A DNA stretch of 64,000 nt from the human T2T-CHM13v2.0 reference genome, Homo sapiens: the NCBI RefSeq assembly GCF_009914755.1, contig NC_060928.1. One strand, 5' to 3'. This document shows positions 15,843 to 63,429 of the stretch, piece by piece (the stretch's first letter is position 1; each line of letters begins with the position of its first letter). Position numbers and translations under genes: made by a program. Under the pieces are notes generated by a model. It ran no database searches and had not been told where the DNA came from. It worked only from the letters and a program-made list of their open reading frames with translations.

Positions 15843-15968
15843 AACCTATTAAAGAAGGAAAAGTACCAGGAATCCTGGAAAAATTAATCTTGTTGCCCTG
15901 CAATCAGAGCCAGCCAGGAAAAGAAGCAGTACACAGAGTCAGAAACAGCTACATGTGAAAAATCACAT
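15843..15968 (+). repeat. 126-bp dispersed direct duplicate of 16797-16922
   Basis: Ungapped, 116/126 identical by manual alignment. Confidence 0.95.
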
Positions 15969-17521
15969 AGTATTAACTATTTTAAAGTTCATAACAATCC
16001 AATCAGTGCACGTCTATAAGTATTCACATTTCCTAGATAGGTAAGCTTAGTGAGAAGTTAAATAATCTGTCCACAGTCTCACAACTAGCAAGTGGTGTCC
16101 CTGTAAAACAGACCAGGCAGTCTGGCTCCAAAGTCCTACACTCTATTGAATGATCTTAATAAGAAATGACAACTAGTTTTATGGCCTGATGCATTCAAAT
16201 TCATTCTAGAAATATTTATCCATGGGCAACAGAATGTCTCCCCAATACAGAGATAAGAAAAATGATGCAAAGTAAATGTATTCCTAAAGAGCAAGACTAT
16301 TTTTGTAGTTGTAGTTGTTGTTGTTGTTGTAGAACATGGTGGGGTACAATGGAGATGCTTGGACCAAAGCTTGACTACCTACCCTAATTTCAGTCTTGCC
16401 TCCTTAAGACTTGATCTCTATCAGTTTGATGGAATTTGAGTATGCATAAAAAAGATGTATTGTGGTCAACAGAAGCAATCAAGAAGGGCAGAAATAAAGC
16501 GGAGTTGTGAAGAGCTACATGTGCAAGTCCTGAAAATATCATTGTGTCTGGGTGAGATTCAAAAAGAAGGAGAACAAAAACAGTTCCCCAATGGGATGTG
16601 CTTTAGAAAGCCAGGTGAGGCTGAAGACATGACTCAGGCATCCTTGTTGTAAAACTGGCTTTGAGGTAACACATAGTAGTGAGCGTGGACTTCCATGGTT
16701 CATACATAAGAAGATTCTGTGGAAACTAGATATTTTAATCAATTCTAAACTTAATAGGAGAGCTGTCACCAGATGTAACTTCTACCAAAAGAGAGGAACC
16801 TATTAAAGAAGGAAAAGTACCAGGAACCCTGGAAAAATTAATCATGTTTCCCCGCAGTCAGAGCTAGCCAGGAAAAGTAACAGTACACAGAATCAGAAAC
16901 AGCTAGATGTGAAAAATCACATTACAGAAAGCTTAGAGAAAGAATGGCTAGGAGATCAGATAACAATAAAATGAAAATGCCACAAAAGAAAAGAGAAACT
17001 GTCAAAATGGACTTCAGACAACACAATCACAGATGGTGCTGATAAAGAAGAAAATGGGCATCCAAAGAGATCAGCACAGCAGCCCAAGGAGCTAGCAATA
17101 AATGTGAGAACATGGAAAATGATGAAAGTAGAGGTATATAAGTAAGAATGATAATGGAAGAATAATATAGACACCTAAAAAAATTGACAGTGAGTTTAAA
17201 GCAAGAATGGAGTTGAGAAAAATTCCAAAGGTGTTTTAAAAATCATGCGTAATACAAGAAAGATAATAAAAAGAGGAAACTCTGCTACTTGGGGCTGAGG
17301 ATGACATATTAACAATGGCCAAGGGAAAGCAGTAGGCACTATTTTACTCCATTTAGCCTCCTCCTTAGACAGCAAAGAAGATAATGTTCACAGTAGCAAG
17401 AAAATGAGCCCCATGTATAAGAGTAGGCACCTACAAACTTTGATAACATCCAGTATTATTGTGAGGACTTGAAATTGACATTGTTGAATTATCGATGGTT
17501 TATTCATGTTATTGAATAAAT

Positions 17522-19849: not shown

Positions 19850-22420
19850 TAAGCAATTTTATTTCTTGCTGTTCTTGTTAATTTAGCTTAGTTCTTTTAT
19901 GATTATTTTTTTCTCAAAGAATAAATTTTTTTTTCAATTATTCATTCTACTTTAAGAACCACTAATTTTTGGTGTCTGCTTTTATTACCATTTGTTTCAT
20001 TTATGGAAAATGCTTTTATGATTTTTTTCTAAGTTACTGAATTGAATGCTTACTTCATGTATTTTTATTCTAACTCTCCTAATCATAAAGGCATTTATAA
20101 AATGAATTAAACAGTTATGAAAACTTTGGCTGCCTCTCATATTTTTATATGTTGTAGATTCATTCTAATTATGTACAAAATTATTTATAGTAGCATTTTA
20201 TTAAAACATAACGTGTAAACAAAAAAAGTTGTACAAGAAAGACAGAAATCACTGAAATTCCATTTCTATAACTTTGATACATATTTTTTCATCAGAATCA
20301 GCTATCTTGTTCATATTTTTGAGTAATATGGGGTCAAACATTTACATTATTTTGCAATTATTTTTATGTACAAGCATTTTGGAACAGTTTTTATGACAAC
20401 AAATATGTGTGTGCTTTGTGTGTCTTTTTATTTCTTTTATTTCTTTATAAGGACAAATGACTATTTGTCTCTAAGGTACTAAGGTTGATTTTAATTTTTT
20501 CACTAATGAAAATAATTTGGAATATCTATATTTAAATTCTTATATGGCCTGTTTTCAATTTTTTTTATGTTTTTATAGCTAGGATTTAGGGATCAAATGA
20601 TATTTAAGTCTGAAGGTTTTTCATATTAAGTAATCATTTTCCCTCTTACAGGTTATAACAATTTACTCTCCCACTAACAAAAAATGAAAATGTCTCTTTT
20701 CTCACCTATCAAACTATATTATCCTGCTTTTTAATTTTTACCAAACTGACAGGTTGAAAAGTATGTACATTTCTTTGATTACTAATGCCACTGATTATTT
20801 TGCCTTAGCTAATTATTTATTTCATTATTTATGCATATTTTTCTTATTAATTCAAGAGGACTCCATGAATTAAAAAATAATTTAATTATTAACTCCATGA
20901 ATTAAAAAATATTCTGTCATATATGTTGAAAATATTTATTCCCAATTTTTTCATTTTTCTTTAAATTTTTCCTATTTTTGGGGGAAGTTTTGAATGTTTT
21001 ATGTTATCAAACTATTAATTTTCCTTTTTATAGTTTCTGCTCTGGCTGTTATATTTAGAAAGGTCTTTCTTTTGGTTTCCAAGTTTATTTTATTTATATT
21101 GCTACAAAATATTTCATTATTTTGCAGCAATATAGTTTATATTAAAATTTATATTGCTACAAAATATTGCTACAAAATATTTTGTTATTTTGCAGCAATA
21201 TAGTTTATATTAAAATGTTTTTCTTTAAATATGTAAAGGATCTTGATTATGTTTGATGTAGGTGTGAAATAGGAATCCAGCTTTATTTTATCTGTCACAA
21301 CTTGGTTGTTCAAAAGTCACTAATTGAGTAATCCATTCCTTCCCACCTTTTTGTATAATAAAAATTTCATTTTGTGTTTGTGCTATATATATTTTGTTTT
21401 ATTGACCTATTTTGATGCAAATCATATAAAGTTTTTACTGCAGAAACTTTGTGATATATTCTAATTACAATTTTGGTAAGGTAAATCCAATATATTTTTC
21501 TTTTTCAAAATATTATTATTCTTTTTTATTTTAAAGGAGCTTTATAATTAATGATGTTTACAAACAAAGTCTTTAAGATAGTTTCATTGGACTTATCAAA
21601 TTTGTAGATCAATTTTGGAGAAAAATGGCATCTTCAAAGTATTTCTTCTTCTAATTTAGAAAGAGGACACTAACCTGGGTATTCCAGATAGGCAATTATA
21701 TCCTCAGTAAGAAATTATGTCTTTAGTTCCTATATTAAATGTTTTGTTTTTATCAAGCTTTATTAGCTATTACTTTAAAAATATTAATTAACAGTAGCAA
21801 AAATGACTCTTTTCTTGTTCCTGATTTTAATGAGAATTGCTTCAGCATAAAATGATCATTTATTTTAAATTGGTACATTTTAATAAGTTAAGAAATTGTA
21901 CTTCTGTTTTTAAGTACTAATTGTTAAACAAATAAACAAATTGTATATACCAAAGAGAACATAGCATATTGGTAAGCATCCATGGAACATTGACCTTTAT
22001 ATTAGTAAATGAAATAACTGTAAATATTCTGAAATTCTGAGCATGTTAGAAAATAGATAAATGGGGAAAATTCACATTATCTGACCATAATGCAATAACT
22101 CTAGAAACTAATAAGAGATTTTAAAAAAGAAACAAAAAAGTGCTGATAAAACATTTAAATAAAGGTCTTGAAATTTTAAGAAAAGATTGGATTACATTGT
22201 ACCAAATTCTACTTCAGCATCTACCCAGATTTTTCTTCTTTGATCTAGTAATGAATCATATCTGGAACAAATAAGACTTAGTTACTACGTTATTTTTAAA
22301 AGTAATACTGAATTAAGTCTGCTACTACTATTAATACAGTTATTTTACATAAGGGAGGTTAATTTTCTGTTTTCTGCTATTTTTGTCAGGTTTTGAAGTC
22401 TGTTTTTATTGGCTGTATTT
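19850..22420 (-). mobile_element. Highly degraded old L1 (L1ME/MC-like) fragments
   Basis: T-rich antisense L1 motifs (aatttactctcccactaaca, ttgtagatcaattttggagaaaa, cttgttcctgattttaatg). Confidence 0.55.
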
Positions 22421-22441: not shown

Positions 22442-23380
22442 TGTTGCCATGATAATGCTGTGTTCTCCATCACTCAATTAGCAGTTTAAGTAACACCATT
22501 TATTATTTATCATGAGTCTATGGTTGATGGGATGTTCTGCTGAACTGGATCAGGTTTGACTCACCTCAGCTGGGCTTGCTCATCATCTGTGGTCAACTGG
22601 CAAGTCACCTAAGATAGCTGATCTGGGATACCTTCAGCTGAGATAATTCATCCCTCTTTCAAATGTGTCTCTGACATCCTTCTTTCCAACAGGCTAGATC
22701 AGGCACACATCCTCACATGTCGTCAGGGGTCCAATAAAGTTAAACCATGCATGTGTCTTTTGAAACTTGTTTGCAATTTTTTCATTTTTTTTTTCATTTG
22801 AAAGTAATTTTTGTGAGTACATAGTAGGTGTATATATTTATGGGGTACATGAGATGTTTTCATCACAGGCATGCAATGTGAAATCAGCACATCATGGAGA
22901 ATGGGATATCCTTTCCCTCAAGCATTTATCATTTGAGCTACAAACAATCCAATCACATTCTTAGTTATTTTAAAATATGCAATGAAATTATTATTGATTA
23001 TATTCACCCTGTTGTGTTATCAAATAGTAGGTCTTATTCATTTTTTTCTGTAGCCATTAACCATCCCCATCTCTAGCCACCCGCTACTCTTCCCAGCCTC
23101 TGGTAACCATCCTTCTCTCTCTGTGACTATAAGTTCAATTGTTTTGATTTTTAGATCACAAATAAGTGAGAACATGTGATGTTTATCTTTCTGCGCCTGG
23201 CTCATTTCATTCAACATAATGATCTCTGGGCTTGGCTATGGTATTTGCTTAGCAAATGAAACAGTAGCTCCAACATCATGGATAGCGCTACTGTTTCATT
23301 TGCTAAGCGAATACCATAGCCAAGCCCAGAGTCAGTAATGGGAAGGCAGTAGGCATTACAAAAGGGCATAGATAAGGAAG

Positions 23381-23417
<37 letters not shown>

Positions 23418-29288: not shown

Positions 29289-30359
29289 TGTTGCGGGAAG
29301 TCAGGGACCCCAAATGGAGGGACTGGCTGAAGCCATGGCAGAAGAACATGGATTGTGAAGATTTCATGGACATTTATTAGTTCCCCAAATTAATACTTTT
29401 ATAATTTCTTATGCCTGTCTTTACTGCAATCTCTAAACATAAATTGTAAAGATTTCATGGACACTAACCACTTCCCCAATCAATACCCTTGTGATTTCCT
29501 ATGCCTGTCTTTACTTTAATCTCTTAATCCTGTCAGCTGAGGAGGATGTATATTGCCTCAGGACCCTGTAATAATTGCATTAACTGCACAAACTGTACAG
29601 CATGTGTGTTTGAGCAATATGAAATGTGGGCACCTTAAAAAAAGAACAGGATAACAGCAATTGTTCAGGGAATAAGAGAGATAACCTTAAACTCTGACTG
29701 CCTGTGAGCCGGGTGGAACAGAGCCATATTTCTCTTCTTTGAAAAGCAAATGGGAGAAATAATGCTGAATTCTTTTTCTCAGCATGGAACATCCCTGAGA
29801 AAGAGAATGCGCACCTGGGGATAGGTCTCTAAACTGGCACCCCTGGGCATGGTCATCTCTTATGGTCGAGACTGCAGAGGTGAGATAGACTCCAGTCTCC
29901 TATAGCACTCCCAGGCTTATTAGGAAGAGGAAATTCCCGCCTAATAAATTTTGGTCGCACTGGTTGATCTCTCAAAACCCTGTCTCCTGATAAGATGTTG
30001 TCAATGACAATGGTGCCTGAAACTTCATTAGCAATTTTAATTTCACCTGGGTCCTGTGGTCTTGTGATCTTGCCCTGCCTCCGCTTGCCTTGTGATAGTC
30101 TATTACCTTGTAAAGTACTTGATGTCTCTGACCCACACCTATTCACACACTCCCTCCCCTTTTGAAAATCCCTAATAAAAACTTACTGGTTTTTGTGGCT
30201 TGTGGGGCATCATAGAACCTACCGACATGTGATGTCTACCCCGGACGCCCGGCTTTAAAATTTCTCTCTTTTGTACTCTGTCCCTTTATTTCTCAAGCTG
30301 GCCGACGCTTAAGGAAAATAGAAAAGAACCTACATGAATATCGGGGCAATTCCCCGATA
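29289..30359 (+). mobile_element. MER11 (MER11C-like, HERV-K11/HML-8) solo LTR
   Basis: Starts tgttgcgggaagtcagggacccc...gaagccatggcagaagaac; 1071 bp; perfect 6-bp TSD AAATAT (29283-29288, 30360-30365). Confidence 0.93.
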
Positions 30360-54281: not shown

Positions 54282-54387
54282 TATACATATGTGTATATAG
54301 ACATATATATGTATATATTTATTCAAATATGTCTATATATAGATATATGTATACATATTTGTATATATATGTGTGTGTATATATATG
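54282..54387. repeat. TA/TG-rich low-complexity tract
   Basis: Directly visible. Confidence 0.9.
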
Positions 54388-56200: not shown

Positions 56201-58937
56201 AACAAAACACTTAACAATTCTGAGTCTCAATGTCGTTGACTATAAAGTAGAAATATCTTCCCTTCCTACCTTAAATAGATCACATTTATGAAAAAGATTC
56301 ATAAGTTATAAAACAACACCTCAATGAAAAATGCTGTATCTGGACTTTAAAAAGAAGTGAATTAAATACTAATTTTACCTCTTAGTATATATGTGATCTT
56401 AATGAAGTCCTTAGTTTTCTTGTCTGTTAAATAATAATGGTAAGGGCACCTTCTCATATGGTCATTGTGAAGCTTACATGTATAAAAAGCTCAGTACCAT
56501 GGCTGACACATAGAAAGTATTTAACAGTGTTCAAAAACATAATCAATATAGGAAATAAGTATTATTTTATTTCCTTAATAATTTCTTAGTTATACCCCAT
56601 TATCATATGTGATAAGAGAATGTACTTTATTTCTAGTTTTCCAGATAATCTGTATCCTAAACATTCTTTACTCCCAAATTCAGTCTTTGAGCATCCTAAC
56701 TCTTGACATCCACAGCTAATATTTAGGAAACATTAAAATTTGTTTGTACATTTGAAGGAAGAACTAAGTAAATGGAACTTACCAATCCTAAAATCCAGAC
56801 TGCTGTTATTAAGAAGAAGAACAACTGTACAAATGCTGTTATCAAAGGATGTATGAGTCAGGCGGAAAAAAAAGGAGAACACAGAAAGGTGAAAAGTCTT
56901 TGTCAAGCAGAGGAGAGAAATTATTGTCTTGTAATATATATGAGAGAGTCTAGCCAAATATTAAACATTTTTAAAATGAAAAGAAATATTATACATGGTA
57001 TGAATAATATTTAAGTCATTGCCTAGGTTAGAAGATTAGATATATTTACCTATTCTACCTACTTCAAATGCTTTTTTGCTGTCATTGTTTGGAACCTCCA
57101 AATACTAGAATGCTTTAGAATTATAAAACCATTGACCATGTTCAGTTATGTTTAAAAGAAAACATCATTCTGAGGAAACTGGAAATTATATATTTATAAA
57201 TGTTTGTCCATAGCATTGTTGAAACAAATGGCTCAGGTTTCACTGTTAATCCAGTTGCTGATATTTTTGACTACTCAATACACCAAAATGGTACAGTCAA
57301 GTTGGTGCTAATAGATGTCATTTATTTACACAAACTGACAATAGGTTCACCAAAGTTAAGAGACGAATTTAAGGGGGACAGAAAAGAAATTCCTGTGTGT
57401 GCTTTGGCAGCTTAGACATACTTACCACGAACAAGATTATATCTTAAAAGCTATTCGTTAAGCTTAAAATTAAGTTATATGGTTGTAATATGTGGAGATA
57501 GCACATTGGAATAGCTCTTCACTTAATGTTATAGATCACTTTTTCCACCAATATTATTTGGTCTAGGAAAGTAAAATCCTCTTGAGGAAGTAATTAGAAA
57601 AAGCACACATCAGGGAATGTAATTGAAGATAGACTTTTGTTGACCTCAGAAGAGAAAAGCTCAAAAGAAATTTCGTAAAGTTTTAAATATGGCAAGAGGA
57701 CCACAATGTCTTTGATAATTAGACTTTCAACACATTTGGATTTGCTAATTGGATCTAAGTTCTAATTAGGCTTTTTATGTAACTAAGAATGACATATCAT
57801 TGTATGAATTTAATGTGCTTTTACAGTTGAAACTAACAATTAGCAGCCTTTTCCAAATTATTTTAATAAGGAAAAAGCTGGCTCTGCTGTTTATACTGTG
57901 ACATTCCCTTCTCTTAAGATATATTATGTACATTTTCATTTTCTTAATTAAACACCTTTTGGGGAGCTTAAAGGGAAACTTGGGTTTTAATAGGAAGCAC
58001 CTAAATTGTTTATTTGTGGGGGAGACTTGCCAGCCAGTATGTAGATGACTTTGGAAGCTACAGACAAACCGCAATAAAAAGAAATAAATCACAATCATCA
58101 GGAGGAAACAGCACAAATAACCATTTGCCCCTATGACCATTCAGTTAATCAAAACAGTCTCTGAATATGATGAAAGATCTGTTACATTTTTAAGTGTGCA
58201 CATGCGGAATATGTTCCCAAATGTGAAGGCTCATGGATCTGCTTTCAGGATGAATAATAGGAAATTTCTTCTCAAGATGTGCATTACAACATTCTCTCTC
58301 TCTGTAGCCTTGTTCTGTAAACAGTTATCTGCTAATTCAAGTCAAATCATCTCTTTCTTTCTCCATATTTTTGATTGAGAGTCATCAATTTTTATCCCAT
58401 TCAGATATATAGACAGTAATTTAAAAACTGGTAGCCCTCAGATTTGTACATTCCAAGAGATAAGACCTATATAACAGCATAAAATTAAACTACTATTTGG
58501 GTGAGTAAAGAGCAGTGAGTCATTGCAAGACTTTAAGGGAAAGGCTGCTGCCAAAATATTCCAAGCAAATTGATAACACTGCCAAAAAGGCAAATTATAT
58601 TGTTTTATGTGCTATGAATACTTTGAAAACAAAGACATACACATGATTTTTTTCAAATAAAAGCAGTTGCCCTTCTAACCATATTAAAAATAGTGTCTTT
58701 TTTCCCAGTAAAAGCCATATAAGATCAAATTAAAACCATTGAAACTATTAGAGAATCTAACTTACAGTAATTGATATATTAAAAAAGACATTATGTTAGA
58801 GTTATATGTGCTATTATTTTTCCAATTAGTACATTACTGGGACTGAGTGATTGGTGTATACATAAGTCCTCATTAAGTAAAATGTCCTCAATGAGCCTCC
58901 TAAAGCACATTGGGTACTGTCATGTGCCATATAATGA

Positions 58938-59234
<297 letters not shown>

Positions 59235-59838
59235 TGAGCCTCGTGGTTTTGACTTTTGGAGGTTACTTTATCCTATATTTCTTTCTTTATTAACTGATGA
59301 CATAATCTTAAAAGAGATTTTAACAAATTCTAAATACGCTTTCTAAGATTTTTTAATGGTCATATTTCACAGCCTTCAATTTACGTGGATCAGGATCACA
59401 GTTTTGCAGACTTTTAACTACAGTGTATGTGTTAGGAATTTTCTTAGAAATTTTAGGCTCAATTTCCATCCTACAGTTTTCTACACATGACAAAGTAAAG
59501 GTATGTCTCAGGCCTTCTTTCATTAAAACTGTAGTGAACATAGATAGTCAACATATAGTGAACATTGAAACTATAAATGAACATAACCCTGACCATGCCA
59601 AACAATGGTAGATTTGGTAAAATGTACATTCTCTAATAGTGAAATATTAACAAACTAAGAATCTTTTTCTCGTAAGAACCTACTTCAAAGGGAAGCTGTT
59701 GTTTAATAGGCATCTACTGTCGACTGTATTCCAGGCTCAGTGCTGATTACTGAGAACATTGACAAATAAAATGACAGATATAATTCTGTCTTGATAGAAC
59801 TTATCATCTAGTGATTCTGTGAATGTTGAATAGGATTA

Positions 59839-60170
59839 CAGTAGTTTCCCTTTATCTGTGGGGGATGCATTCCAAGACCCCCAGTGGATGCCTGAAACTG
59901 TGGATAGTTTTGTTTTCTTCCAACACAATCACATTGTGTAGGGCTTATAGGTTATAGAGTGTGGATATGCTGGACAAAGGGATGAGTCACATCCAGGGCA
60001 TGTCAGTGGGATGGTGTGAGATTTCATCATGCTACTTAGAACAATGTTAAATTCAAAACTTATAAATTGTTTATTTCTGGAAGTTTTCATTTAATATTTT
60101 TTGGACCATGGCTGATTGAGGAGTAACCGAAACTGGTGAAAGAGCAACCATGGATAAGAAGAGTCTACTG
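59839..60170 (-). mobile_element. MER44A-like Tigger DNA transposon
   Basis: TIRs cagtagtttccctttatc / gataagaagagtctactg flanked by TA target duplications. Confidence 0.85.
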
Positions 60171-61178
60171 TATACCTGGGAAAGATCTGTTACAATTTCA
60201 TTTACTTATTAAAAAGTCAATAAATGGTAACTGTTATAATTCTATACATTATAGTTTTCTTTCCTAATAGATACATACAATAAGATGTTAATAGAAATAT
60301 TCTTAAACAGTAAAATACTCAAATGGGCTCTGTCTAAATAGCCATAAACCACGAAGGCATACATTCTCCTTTGCTATTCCAATGTGTTTAATCATGTGCT
60401 AGTTTATAGCCTGTTTCAAAACGTAATAGTCCATAGTTAGTACTTTATTTTTCTTCAGAAAAGTCTACTTGTTTTTAATTTTGAAAAAGATTTTCCTATG
60501 GGCTAGGTAAATTGCAGAATTAGTAAATAGGAGAGGAAGACTTTTTGATACGTTGATGCTAATTGGATGTTCATCAAATTTTATAACACCAGTTGCTGCC
60601 CTTTGTACATTGTTTACTACAAATTAAATATATGCAATGTAATTTTATTGTCAAAAAAGTGGATTTGTGCATATTTTCTATGAAAGGACATTCAAGTGAG
60701 TGACCTATTCTTCTTTTTTTGTGGCCCATAAATTATTCCTAGTTATTATTTTTAAAAGGGCTTAATTGCTTTTGGTAAATAATTGTAAGTATTTCACAAC
60801 TTAAATGTGAATTCGCTTCTGTATGTACCTAAGGGTATTGATATGCATTTACATTGATGCACTAATATTAAAAAAGACAGATATTTAAAGTACAGCAAAT
60901 TATTAATAGTCTTTCCTCCAGTGATTAGCATGAAAACTCCAGTGATGATTGCAGTGAAAGACGGTATATGTGCTTTGTTTTCCTTTGAGAAAAGAAAGCA
61001 AATCTTTAAGTCCAATTAACCTCAGTCAGTTTTAAGCAAATAGTTATTTCGCAATTACTATATGATAGACTCAGTAATGGATATAAGAGAAATAATATAC
61101 AGACCTTGTCCTCAAAGTATTCATAGAATCTTGTTAGGTTGATGCACATAGAGAAAAACAGCTCAGATTGATTAAATA

Positions 61179-61497
61179 TGGTTGACCCTTGGTGTCTGTG
61201 AGGCATTGGTTCCAGGAAACCCCCACACCAAAATCTGCAAATTCTTAAGTTTCTGATATAAAATGATATAGTATTTGCATATAACCTATGTACCTCCTCT
61301 CATATGCTTTAAAGCATTTTAGATTACTCTTAATACCTAATACAGTGTAAATGCTATGTAAGTAGTGGCTCTACCGAATTATATATTTATTTTTGTTATT
61401 TTTATTGGGTTTTTTTCCTAATATTTTTGAGCCTCAGTTTGTTGAATCTATGGAGTTGAGTCTAGATGCAGAACCTGTGGATATGGAGTGTTAACTG
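61179..61497. mobile_element. MER2-like Tigger DNA transposon
   Basis: gttgacccttggtgtctgtg...attggttccagga...gtatttgcatataaccta...gaacctgtggatatggag...aactgta. Confidence 0.85.
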
Positions 61498-61499
61498 TA

Positions 61500-61945
61500 C
61501 TTACTATGTGCAAGCTACTCTACTAAGTCTTTTGCATGTATTGTCTTATTTTGTCCTCACAATATTCTCAAGAAATAGGTAATATTCTGATCTCAAGAGG
61601 AAACTGAGACATCCAGAAGTTGAAATACATACATGTATGTGTGTGTGTATATATATATATATATATCTTATCATTAAGGGAAGGGGTTAAGGTCTAGAAT
61701 CAGACTTCCTGAATTTGAATCCTAACTCTGCTACTTACTATCTGTATAATGTTCATAAATACATGAACCTAGAAGAAATTGAAGAATAACATGCAAGGAG
61801 CGATTCTACGTGTGGTAACTGCTCTGGTAAGTATTACCTGAGCCTTGTGGTTTTACAGACAGTAAGTAGCAGAGTTAGGATTCAAATTCAGGAAGACAGA
61901 TTCTAGACGTTAACCCCTTCCCTCTTAATGATACATTATACTGTC
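61500..61945 (-). mobile_element. Antisense MIR interrupted at ~61626-61853 by a complex insertion
   Basis: 61500-61625 (...gaggaaactgagac...gaagttgaaa) continues collinearly at ~61855 (acagacagtaagtagcagag...ggattcaaa). Confidence 0.75.
61773..61854 (+). pseudogene. Diverged partial duplicate of the GRID2 exon 3' half (54 nt) plus donor and 28 nt of intron
   Basis: Ungapped match to 59169-59250, 73/82 identical by manual alignment; CTG|GTAAGT retained (GT 61827-61828). Confidence 0.95.
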
Positions 61946-63429
61946 TCCAGTCCTACTGTGATAAGTGTGAGAACTGAGGTGTCTATAGAATTTTGTTTGA
62001 CTTGAGAGTTGAAAATGCTTACGTCTGAATAAGGTGAAAGTGAGTTTTATTGGGAAGGATTGTAGGTACAATCATGTTAAATTCATTTCCAGGCTGAATA
62101 AAACAATTGCTATTTTGTTCATGAAATAGTAGCACTTCACACAGTGTTAACACCTGCATACCCCAGGTTCACCTTCATGACTCTTAATAATCTCTATTTC
62201 CTGCAAGCTTAGCCCTGCACAGATATTGAATATGGTTTTGTGACTGGAGACATGGAAGCAGTGTTTTTTTTTTTTTTTTTCAAGTCTTCTATGATGGACT
62301 TATCAGTTGGGTGCCAGTTGAGTAACAGGTTGTTATACTTATTACATTACTACAATATACAATCATTGTGTTTAATAATTTTGCATGCTTCCTATGTCTT
62401 TCTGTAACTACTCTGAGAATGGAAACCAGTCATTCCCTTCTTATTTATTTTCTACAAGTGCCTTTTCAGGTCTAGCTCTTAGTTATATGGCCTTGCAAGC
62501 TTCTTCTACTCAACACTGAGAACCACTCTCCCCTCACCCCACCCAGCAACTCCCGAATCTTGAGGCTTTACCTCACTAAACCCTGAAACTAGGATTTAAT
62601 CTATACTCAACTTGATGTTGTCACCTAAACGCAACCTCCCACCCCCTTATATTCCAAGTATTTACGTCCAACACTTTCCAGAAGAGAAAAGGGAAAGGAC
62701 CAATGTGTACATGGGAAGAAGCTATTTCCTCCTTTCTTCTATTGAAACTGAAATCTAGTCTTAGCTCTACCCACTCCCTCTTTTCTTAAGAAATTTTATA
62801 TTATCAATTACACCAGGTTAATAAAATGGATTTTTCTTACCAAAATTTTGAAATTCCCATTCTTATGACTGTTGATATTTTATTGACTTGAAAGAAATAA
62901 CTTCATATTTATTTTAAACTACACAATTCAGCACTCTACTGTTTGTGATCCCATGGGCAAATAAGTGGTGCTCTCAAACATTTCATTGAAGAGTTAAATA
63001 GAGGTATTATTGACGAAGATGTAAATAGTGTTAAAGGAATCAACAAGGAGTGTTGAATCACCAGAACCTACCTAGATGACTTACATGAAGACTGATAAGG
63101 CATGGGAGGAAGCATTATTACTAGACAAAGCAATAGAGCCATGGGAGAGAGACCATCACTCATAGTAGTAGTGAGCTACAGTGCAGAAAAAGAAAGAGAA
63201 TCACTGCCAATACCAAAATCAGGCTATGAGGAACTGGGAATAAGGGATACACTGATCTCACTCCTCTTATCTATCTCTTTTCATGGTCTCCAACTGCAAA
63301 TCCAACCAGAAGTCAGAGGTTATGGGAGCCTAAGTAAGGAAGACCATGAAAGTTAGTCTTTCAGGACACAGAGGAAGGCAGTGAAGCCCTCAGTGAATCC
63401 AGAAGAAAAGTAGAGAAAAACCAACACGA

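What the first reader, a model, noticed from the sequence alone, without database searches (positions are those of the whole stretch)
61626..61933. The exon copy sits in the loop of a ~78-bp inverted repeat created inside one MIR
Seen: 61669-61746 is the reverse complement of 61854-61933 (4 mismatches plus a 2-nt indel, with a 35-bp perfect core), enclosing a 107-nt loop made of 26 nt of filler (mini-hairpin gttcat/atgaac) and the exon copy. The right arm is the collinear continuation of the antisense MIR at 61500-61625, so the left arm is the new inverted copy. The arms are far more alike than independent MIRs would be. Inference: one repair event with several template switches (fold-back onto the flank, a 2.6-kb jump to the exon, then return), as in MMBIR/FoSTeS or polymerase-theta templated insertion. 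In pre-mRNA the stem would bury the candidate branch point while exposing the exon copy, giving a possible structure-controlled splicing switch or ADAR substrate.
Basis: partly seen in the sequence, partly recalled or inferred. Interest (0 to 1): 0.8.

Follow-up and report, generated by a model that had tools for sequence, protein, structure and literature searches.

The report
Template-switch repair scar in GRID2 intron
An old break inside an ancient repeat in a GRID2 intron was patched with a backwards copy of its own flank and a copy of half a nearby exon, leaving a long hairpin that is real but has no shown function.

Summary
Left arm 61669-61749 is the reverse complement of right arm 61851-61933: 81 columns, 5 mismatches, one 2-nt indel and a 35-nt perfect core. 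The 107-nt loop holds a 26-nt filler and an 82-nt gap-free copy (9 mismatches) of 59169-59250, the last 54 nt of the GRID2 exon plus 28 nt of intron. Genome-wide, each arm's best match is the other arm, and the loop copy matches only that exon. The right arm is collinear with the repeat part at 61490-61625, so about 212 nt were inserted into one dispersed repeat.

Best reading: a germline repair scar made by serial template switching (MMBIR or polymerase-theta class), about 0.65 for a single event. A two-step origin is not excluded. The exon copy is more diverged than the arms (P 0.009-0.09), but this fades once CpG sites are removed (P 0.12-0.19).

An AG sits directly before the copy, which stays open for 18 codons in the native frame, and its donor 9-mer is identical to the real one. 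Branch-point-like motifs are buried in a 74-bp stem. No expression, editing or orthologue data could be reached, so function is untested. This is a new member of a known kind.

The parts
59169..59250 (+). Source of the loop copy: last 54 nt of the 102-nt GRID2 coding exon (59121-59222) plus the first 28 nt of the downstream intron
   Evidence: 82 nt, 89% identical to 61773-61854, no gap. The exon translation is identical in 5 of 5 full-length GluD2 chain sequences in the PDB. The paralogous GRID1 exon has the same 102-nt size.
61490..61625 (+). Part A of the interrupted dispersed repeat (MIR by recall, antisense on + by recall)
   Evidence: An nhmmer search with this stretch hits other genomic copies that also carry the right-arm part on the same strand, 25 nt further on (L019, L018). 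Alignment.
61626..61668 (.). TG/TA-rich simple sequence ending in a (TA) microsatellite, lying exactly at the junction between part A and the left arm. It hides that junction.
   Evidence: Sequence. Tandem Repeats Finder: 61648-61666, period 2, 9.5 copies, 100%.
61669..61749 (+). Left arm: the new, inverted copy of the right arm
   Evidence: At the 3 well-polarised differences it keeps the state held by the majority of other copies (7/8, 6/8, 8/8).
61747..61772 (+). 26-nt filler of unresolved origin, with a 6-bp mini-hairpin (61751-61756 / 61763-61768). It ends in the AG at 61771-61772.
   Evidence: No other copy in the window at 3 mismatches or fewer. The longest local exact match is 8 nt, equalled by 952 of 2000 shuffles. 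The best gapped local match is equalled by 127 of 500 shuffles. A 6-bp hairpin appears in 808 of 20000 shuffles.
61773..61854 (+). Exon copy, direct orientation: 54 nt of exon (61773-61826, open for 18 codons in the native frame only) plus 28 nt of intron, with a donor 9-mer identical to the real one
   Evidence: Genome-wide it matches only the GRID2 exon.
61851..61933 (+). Right arm: the original continuation of the repeat, which runs on to about 61945. Its first 4 nt overlap the end of the exon copy (1 nt exact, 3 of 4 loose).
61722..61744 (+). Branch-point-like motifs (61722-61726, 61734-61738) and a pyrimidine-rich stretch inside the left arm. There is no AG between 61703 and 61770.
   Evidence: Pairing probability 0.94-1.00 in the full hairpin, including in a 1-kb context.

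Best explanation
This is a fossil germline repair scar. A break or stalled fork occurred inside an old dispersed repeat (MIR-type) in a GRID2 intron, between part A (ending about 61625) and the right arm (starting about 61855). It was repaired by a 3' end that copied short stretches from several templates before rejoining.

The order that fits best has the bottom-strand 3' end on the right side of the break do all the copying:
1. It copied 82 nt from the exon-intron junction 2.6 kb upstream, which long resection or an open fork would have exposed.
2. It added about 26 nt of filler, including a small snap-back.
3. It folded back on its own flank and copied about 81 nt of it. This is the left arm.
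4. It rejoined part A, with loss of about 17 nt of the repeat.

A replicative version (fork stalling and template switching) yields the same product.

Shown: both duplications, their orientations, their abrupt ends, their exact abutment, and the net insertion of about 212 nt into one repeat. Inferred: that it was one event, the order of the steps, and the enzyme.

The product is a 74-bp stem with a 107-nt loop on the sense strand of GRID2 pre-mRNA. It most likely persists as neutral intronic sequence. The stem is long enough that some ADAR editing in neurons is plausible, but nothing shows an effect on GRID2.

My odds: the duplications are real, 0.99. They arose by template switching, about 0.9. 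It was a single event, about 0.65.
For: - Arm identity. The arms are 73/79 identical, against 51-71% to the nine best other genomic copies. Those copies are 47-74% identical to each other over 35 pairs (the near-identical L018-L019 pair was dropped). Both arms share a non-majority base at 9 of 68 columns that have a clear majority.
- Genome search. With the right arm as query, the hits are itself, the left arm (92% over 79 nt) and one other locus (94% over 36 nt). In one search other repeat copies match the arms at 81-94% over only 36-65 nt.
- Net insertion. In L019 and L018, 25 nt separate the points that lie 237 nt apart in the window. That gives about 212 nt inserted and about 17 nt of the repeat lost.
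- The exon copy crosses the exon-intron boundary, so the template was genomic DNA or pre-mRNA, not mRNA. Homology stops abruptly on both sides.
- Abutment. The exon copy ends at 61854 and the arm homology starts at 61851. These are two of only a handful of local non-simple duplications in 64 kb, and they abut to the base.
- Tract lengths. The two templated tracts are nearly equal, 81 and 82 nt.
- Literature. Multi-template insertions with return to the original template are described for MMBIR-type events, including germline ones (PMC8421209, passages). Reverse-complement inserts from snap-back on the flank and inserts copied from the other end are described for POLQ, with about 1 error per 30 bp (PMC5068794, passages). 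Template switching creates intronic hairpins in primates at scale (PMC10710096, passages).
- GRID2 is the gene listed for common fragile site FRA4F (PMC3472787, Table 1; PMC9164283, passage).
Against: - Clock. The exon part of the copy differs from its constrained source at 7 of 54 sites, with 5 amino-acid changes. The arms differ at 5 of 81 sites while both evolve freely. The excess has P 0.009-0.035 for the exon part and 0.04-0.09 for the whole copy. This suggests the exon copy is older than the arm duplication. After dropping the 3 CpG-associated differences, P is 0.12-0.19.
- Microhomology. It can be read at only one junction (exon copy to right arm): 1 nt exact, 3 of 4 loose. The junction between part A and the left arm is hidden by the microsatellite. 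The other two junctions touch the unexplained filler.
- The filler has no supported template.
- Tracts of 81-82 nt and a 2.6-kb jump are far beyond the POLQ inserts reported in C. elegans, which are under 25 bp with about 85% primed within 10 bp of the break.
- No outgroup sequence was available, so neither the ancestral uninterrupted repeat nor the timing was seen.
Confidence: 0.65

Rival explanations
1. Two steps, exon copy first. A templated insertion of the exon-junction copy (with the filler) into the repeat came first. Later, a short-range template-switch mutation copied the right flank in reverse complement to a point about 107 nt upstream, creating the hairpin around sequence that was already there.
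For: The exon copy looks more diverged than the arms (P 0.009-0.09). A switch-and-return that inserts an inverted copy of nearby sequence is exactly what the four-point model describes (PMC5453318, passages), and such events are frequent in primates. The (TA) microsatellite at the left arm's outer edge could be a recurrent break site in a fragile-site gene.
Against: The clock excess is not significant without CpG sites. The inverted copying would have had to stop within about 4 nt of the older exon-copy boundary by coincidence. Two rare local duplications landing base-to-base in 64 kb is unlikely unless the site is a hotspot.
Confidence: 0.2
2. Two steps, hairpin first. A fold-back copy made the inverted repeat with a short loop (the filler). 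A later break at the loop-stem border was then patched with the exon copy.
For: Hairpin or cruciform tips are break-prone (established knowledge, recalled). The exon copy sits at the inner base of the right arm.
Against: This predicts an exon copy younger than the arms. The divergence points the other way.
Confidence: 0.05
3. Same scar, but RNA-templated. Both inserted tracts are complementary to the sense GRID2 pre-mRNA when read on the strand that each break end would extend. The two 3' ends could therefore have reverse-transcribed two parts of one nascent transcript.
For: The geometry fits. The left arm on the top strand and the complement of the exon copy on the bottom strand are both antisense to the transcript (gene strand from the hub's table). 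The copy contains intron, as pre-mRNA would.
Against: It needs GRID2 transcription in the germline, which is not known to me. The DNA-only model explains the same product. Nothing here tells RNA and DNA templates apart.
Confidence: 0.08
4. Not a local duplication at all. Either two independent repeat insertions lie head to head, or the arms are the terminal inverted repeats of a DNA transposon that captured an exon fragment.
For: Dispersed repeats of this family are common, and inverted pairs do occur.
Against: The arms are 92% alike, against at most 74% between other copies and at most 71% between an arm and another copy, with 9 shared private states. The right arm is collinear with part A within one element. 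No other genomic copy of the arm-loop-arm unit exists. No target-site duplication is visible at the outer ends.
Confidence: 0.01
5. Function on top of the origin. The hairpin gates a proto-exon. When the stem forms, the branch point and pyrimidine tract are hidden and the 54-nt in-frame exon copy is skipped. If the stem is opened or heavily edited by ADAR, the copy could be spliced in, adding 18 residues to the GluD2 linker between the amino-terminal and ligand-binding domains.
For: An AG lies directly before the copy. The 54 nt are open only in the native frame. The donor 9-mer is identical to the real one. It is the first AG downstream of two branch-point-like motifs. Those motifs have pairing probability 1.00, while the AG is at 0.27 and the exon copy at 0.50.
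Against: The pyrimidine content at -20..-3 is 9 of 18, against 12 of 18 for the real exon. The features are post-hoc and individually likely by chance. Arm differences break pairs rather than compensate. No paper holds all of GRID2, A-to-I, intronic and hairpin (0 papers). The two papers with GRID2 and pseudoexon do not concern this site (passages of one read, the other seen in the listing only). No Rfam family matches.
Confidence: 0.04

Closest known systems
Short template-switch mutations (four-point model; Loytynoja & Goldman 2017, PMC5453318; hairpin and miRNA birth, PMC10710096, PMC8794818)
   Same: A reverse-complement copy of nearby sequence is inserted in one step. [quoted passage not shown]
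   Different: The stem is 74-81 bp, while the miRNA-like class in that work was set at 30-55 bases. The change also includes a direct copy from 2.6 kb away and a filler. The model explicitly leaves out long-range and multiple successive switches.
MMBIR / FoSTeS templated insertions (MMB-TI; Osia et al. 2021, PMC8421209)
   Same: The insertion is assembled from several templates, some inverted, with return to the original template. It is described as accumulating as germline variants. The setting is a large fragile-site gene.
   Different: Microhomology, which defines the class (2-12 bp at 80% of junctions there), can be read at only one junction here, and it is 1 nt exact. This event is ancient and fixed rather than observed de novo.
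Polymerase-theta end joining with templated inserts (PMC5068794; PMC4912351, seen as the abstract start in a search listing only)
   Same: A mix of a copy from the other side of the break, a snap-back copy of the end's own flank in reverse complement, short unexplained filler, single-base priming and error-prone copying.
   Different: The reported inserts are mostly under 25 bp and primed within 10 bp of the break. Here the tracts are 81-82 nt and one template lies 2.6 kb away.
Alternative exons born by exon duplication (recalled: Kondrashov & Koonin 2001; Letunic et al. 2002; not read here)
   Same: A duplicated exon piece downstream of its parent that keeps the frame and the donor site.
   Different: Only half the exon was copied. 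The acceptor is accidental and weak. No use of the copy is shown.
Inverted Alu pairs as ADAR substrates (recalled; not read here)
   Same: A long intramolecular dsRNA formed by inverted repeat copies in a pre-mRNA intron.
   Different: The arms come from one old non-Alu repeat through a local inverted copy, not from two insertions. No editing data were seen.

Membership tests
MIR-type dispersed repeat | Part A and the right arm align collinearly, on one strand, to single copies of a dispersed repeat elsewhere in the genome | tested here: met
   (L019, L018, L016, L020 and L014 carry both parts); alignment.
MIR-type dispersed repeat | Match to the curated family consensus (Dfam/Repbase), including orientation | not testable with these tools
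   No repeat library is held. The name MIR and the antisense orientation rest on my recall.
Short template-switch mutation (four-point model) | A fragment copied in reverse complement from nearby sequence | tested here: met
   81 columns, 5 mismatches, one 2-nt indel.
Short template-switch mutation (four-point model) | One switch-and-return explains the whole change | tested here: not met
   The loop also holds a direct 82-nt copy from 2.6 kb upstream and a 26-nt filler with no template. The model excludes such cases.
Short template-switch mutation (four-point model) | Absent from the ancestral or outgroup sequence | not testable with these tools
   No other eukaryotic genome is held (one search states that the genome has no relatives here).
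MMBIR / FoSTeS templated insertion | Insert copied from one or more nearby templates, with return to the original template | tested here: met
MMBIR / FoSTeS templated insertion | Microhomology at the switch junctions | tested here: inconclusive
   Exon copy to right arm: 1 nt exact, 3 of 4 loose. Part A to left arm: hidden by the microsatellite. The other two junctions border the unexplained filler.
Polymerase-theta templated insert | Reverse-complement copy of the end's own flank and/or a copy from the opposite end | tested here: met
   The pattern matches the two modes described.
Polymerase-theta templated insert | Small insert (under 25 bp) with its template within about 10 bp of the break | tested here: not met
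   Tracts of 81 and 82 nt, and a template 2.6 kb away.
ADAR substrate | Long, near-perfect duplex on the transcribed strand | tested here: met
   74 arm-to-arm pairs in the minimum-energy fold. The left arm pairs with the right arm at mean probability 0.91, also in a 1-kb context. GRID2 is on the + strand (hub table). This is a prediction only.
ADAR substrate | Observed A-to-I editing | not testable with these tools
   No editing database is held. The literature search found 0 papers.
Cassette or poison exon | AG acceptor, GT donor and an open frame | tested here: met
   AG at 61771-61772, 54 nt open in the native frame only, donor 9-mer identical to the real one.
Cassette or poison exon | Polypyrimidine tract before the AG | tested here: inconclusive
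   9 of 18 pyrimidines at -20..-3, against 12 of 18 for the real exon. A pyrimidine-rich stretch lies further upstream, inside the stem. No splice-site scoring model was available.
Cassette or poison exon | Splice junctions seen in RNA | not testable with these tools
   No RNA-seq data or full transcript table. Only 1 of the 19 RefSeq transcripts is listed by the hub.

The most novel reading that the evidence does not exclude
One repair event created a ready-made, structure-locked proto-exon. It is an in-frame 18-codon partial duplicate of the GluD2 linker between the amino-terminal and ligand-binding domains. It has an accidental AG acceptor and the parent's exact donor site, and its branch point and pyrimidine tract are sequestered in a 74-bp stem. 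Inclusion would then depend on stem opening or ADAR hyper-editing in Purkinje cells.
Probability: 0.04. Interest if true: 0.7.

Novelty: new member of a known kind. Interest (0 to 1): 0.35.

Why it matters
This is a clean, readable natural example of a multi-template repair scar. It combines an inverted copy of the flank with a distant direct copy, and it is fixed in the germline inside the gene listed for fragile site FRA4F. It links the short-range template-switch class that makes hairpins with the longer-range MMBIR class. It also shows how one such event can deliver a long intronic dsRNA and a splice-competent exon fragment together.

If orthologues date all parts to one branch, it becomes a textbook case. 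If the proto-exon or editing proves real, it would show repair scars seeding regulated exons in a neuronal receptor gene. As things stand it is most likely neutral.

Tried and rejected
- Template for the 26-nt filler. No second copy exists in the window at 3 mismatches or fewer. There is no exact match of 9 nt or more within 58900-62400, nor of 12 nt or more in the window. The longest local match is 8 nt, equalled by 952 of 2000 shuffles. The best gapped local match is equalled by 127 of 500 shuffles.
- A tempting 15-of-17 match between the reverse complement of 61741-61775 and the outer end of the right arm is therefore not supported.
- Filler as an inverted continuation of the repeat into part A: rejected by eye on the alignment, where identity is near random beyond 4 nt.
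- 'All arm differences are derived in the right arm': only 3 of the 5 substitutions are safely polarised. The remaining ones and the indel lie where the alignment is unreliable.
- Rfam, whole window, gathering thresholds: 0 matches.
- Collecting more repeat copies with part A as query found only the query itself.
- Polarising exon-copy changes with GRID1: the paralogue is too distant (44% identity) and informs one site only.
- Fetching PDB chain sequences to tell species apart failed.
- Literature. GRID2 + A-to-I + intronic + hairpin gave 0 papers. GRID2 + pseudoexon gave 2 papers, neither about this site.
- The supplement list of PMC10710096 showed only small files and no genome-wide event list. 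None was opened. One file was too large to read, and the store gave no answer, so a list there could still bear on timing.
- A relic of a larger 2.6-kb tandem duplication, and a retrocopy from mRNA: both rejected, because homology ends abruptly and the copy contains intron.

Full report
**1. What is in the sequence**

The finding is accurate almost to the base.

- The repeat finder reports arms 61677-61749 and 61851-61923 (73 nt, 93% complementary, 101 nt apart), with a further 17-nt pair just outside them.
- A gapped alignment joins these into left arm 61669-61749 against right arm 61851-61933. That is 81 aligned columns with 5 mismatches and one 2-nt indel.
The 35-nt perfect core is alignment columns 11-45.
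- Between the arms lie 107 nt. The first 26 nt (61747-61772) are filler containing a 6-bp mini-hairpin.
- The rest is an 82-nt ungapped copy (9 mismatches, 89%) of 59169-59250. That source is the last 54 nt of the 102-nt GRID2 exon plus the first 28 nt of its intron.

**2. Is it more than chance?**

- In the whole 64-kb window this is the longest of 19 inverted pairs of 30 nt or more within 1 kb. Most of the others are CA/TG or AT-rich simple sequence.
- As RNA, 61640-61960 folds at -149.5 kcal/mol, against -70.7 +/- 5.8 for 100 shuffles (z -13.7, none as good). As DNA, z is -15.4.
- The stem has 74 arm-to-arm pairs. It forms with mean probability 0.91, unchanged in a 1-kb context.

**3. The arms are one local duplication, not two repeat insertions**

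The assembly itself is searchable.

- With 61600-61960 as query, the only long hits are the locus, its own reverse complement, and the GRID2 exon. The other hits are microsatellites, or repeat copies matching an arm at 81-94% over only 36-65 nt.
- With the right arm alone, the hits are itself, the left arm (92% over 79 nt) and one 36-nt match elsewhere. That tool scores only the best candidates, so counts are lower bounds.
- I fetched ten of those best-matching copies and aligned nine with the three window pieces. The arms are 73/79 identical, against 51-71% between an arm and any other copy.
- Between the other copies, identity is 47-74% (mean 62%) over 35 pairs. The near-identical L018/L019 pair was dropped.
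- The arms share a non-majority base at 9 of the 68 columns that have a clear majority. Because the comparison copies were chosen for similarity to the arms, this control is conservative.

**4. Which arm is original, and how much was inserted**

- nhmmer with 61490-61625 (part A) and with the right arm hits the same copies elsewhere on the same strand.
- In L019 and L018 the two matches are 25 nt apart. The corresponding points in the window are 237 nt apart.
- So part A and the right arm are the two halves of one element, about 212 nt were added between them, and about 17 nt of the element were lost. The left arm is the new, inverted piece.
No repeat library is held here.

**5. The exon copy**

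- The exon translates to a peptide identical in all 5 full-length GluD2 chain sequences in the PDB.
- The paralogue GRID1 has an exon of the same 102-nt size. The exon is therefore the source and the loop piece is the copy.
- The copy crosses the exon-intron boundary, so it did not come from mature mRNA.
- Homology stops abruptly at both ends. No other fragment of the 8 kb around it is duplicated. This argues against a decayed larger duplication.
- Genome-wide, the peptide is found only at the exon, at GRID1 (44% identity) and at the copy.

**6. Junctions and filler**

- The exon copy ends at 61854 and arm homology begins at 61851. The overlap is 1 nt of exact identity, or 3 of 4 loosely.
- The outer junction of the left arm is buried in TG/TA-rich simple sequence ending in a (TA)9.5 microsatellite.
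- The filler has no supported template. Its 6-bp hairpin occurs in 808 of 20000 shuffles, which is suggestive of a snap-back but no more.
- Microhomology, the hallmark of the proposed pathways, is therefore readable at only one of four junctions.

**7. One event or two?**

For one event:
- The two duplications abut to the base.
- They are two of only a handful of local non-simple duplications in 64 kb.
- The two tracts are nearly the same length.
- Multi-template insertions with return to the original template are documented (PMC8421209, passages).

Against one event:
- The exon part of the copy differs from its constrained source at 7 of 54 sites, with 5 amino-acid changes, so most changes lie on the copy.
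- The two freely evolving arms differ at only 5 of 81 sites.
- Conditional binomial tests give P 0.009-0.035 for the exon part and 0.04-0.09 for the whole copy.
- Three of the nine differences are CpG-associated. Without them P is 0.12-0.19.
- Error-prone copying (about 1 error in 30 bp for POLQ) or homogenisation of the arms could blur the clock further.

I put a single event at about 0.65, 'exon copy first, inverted copy later' at about 0.2, and the reverse order at about 0.05.

Pairwise divergence is 6% for the arms (95% CI 2-14%) and 11% for the copy (5-20%). With recalled primate neutral rates this suggests an age of tens of millions of years. That is inference only.

**8. Mechanism**

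- The simplest path has one 3' end make all the new DNA. It copies from the exposed upstream strand (the exon copy), adds a short filler with a snap-back, folds back on its own flank (the left arm), and rejoins part A. A replicative fork-stalling version gives the same product.
- The pattern matches the modes described for POLQ: a copy from the opposite break end, a snap-back copy of the end's own flank, and (from the PMC4912351 abstract start in the listing) non-templated extension (PMC5068794 passages).
- The 81-82-nt tracts and the 2.6-kb jump exceed the sizes reported there. I therefore assign the scar to the wider MMBIR/template-switch class, not to one enzyme.
- The short-range four-point model covers the inverted arm only, and explicitly excludes long-range and multiple switches.
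- GRID2 is the gene listed for fragile site FRA4F and is named among large fragile-site genes, which fits a replication-stress origin.

**9. Function**

- An AG (61771-61772) directly precedes the copy.
- The 54 nt are open only in the native frame.
- The donor 9-mer equals the real one.
- Two branch-point-like motifs and a pyrimidine stretch lie in the left arm, with no AG between them and that acceptor. They are paired with probability 0.94-1.00, while the AG (0.27) and the exon copy (0.50) are more open.

Against it:
- The tract next to the AG is weak: 9 of 18 pyrimidines, against 12 of 18 for the real exon.
- These features were noticed after the fact.
- The arm differences break pairs rather than compensate.
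- No Rfam family matches.
- No paper connects GRID2 with such an exon or with editing at this site.
- No RNA-seq, editing or orthologue data can be reached with these tools.

I rate a real splicing gate at about 0.04. Some ADAR editing of a 74-bp neuronal duplex is plausible but untested.

**10. Verdict**

The template-switch origin is supported. The single-event claim is favoured but open. Function is untested.

This is a new member of a known kind of mutation. It is a tidy specimen rather than a surprise.

Noticed in passing
window 23224-23268 / 23287-23331: A second, tighter hairpin in the same GRID2 intron: 45-nt arms, 98% complementary, 18-nt loop. It folds at -90.3 kcal/mol. It is unique in the genome apart from its own reverse complement, while the sequence just upstream hits many loci. 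A poly-A run follows near 23386. There is no Rfam match. It looks like a younger template-switch hairpin of miRNA-like size.
   Followed up: partly
window 61896 and 61898 (right arm): Two T-to-A changes 2 nt apart, both derived in the right arm relative to 6/8 and 8/8 other repeat copies. This may be a single multinucleotide mutation.
   Followed up: partly
window 61669-61749 and 61773-61854: The two templated tracts are almost the same length (81 and 82 nt). This could reflect the processivity of the copying polymerase, or it could be chance.
   Followed up: no
window 15843-15968 / 16797-16922: A 126-nt direct repeat pair, 92% identical, 954 nt apart. It is either another local duplication or the two ends of an element.
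   Followed up: no
window 21096-21148 / 21164-21216: A 53-nt near-tandem pair, 96% identical, spacing 68.
   Followed up: no
window 29384-29437 / 29474-29527: A 54-nt direct pair, 81% identical, spacing 90, at the edge of the RefSeq enhancer 29484-30297.
   Followed up: no
window 54286-54387: An AT-rich quasi-palindromic simple repeat of about 100 nt (pairs I3 and I5). This kind of sequence is often linked to fragility.
   Followed up: no
window 61420-61470: Just upstream of part A, a short stretch that by eye resembles the same repeat family in the opposite orientation. No tool call tested this.
   Followed up: no
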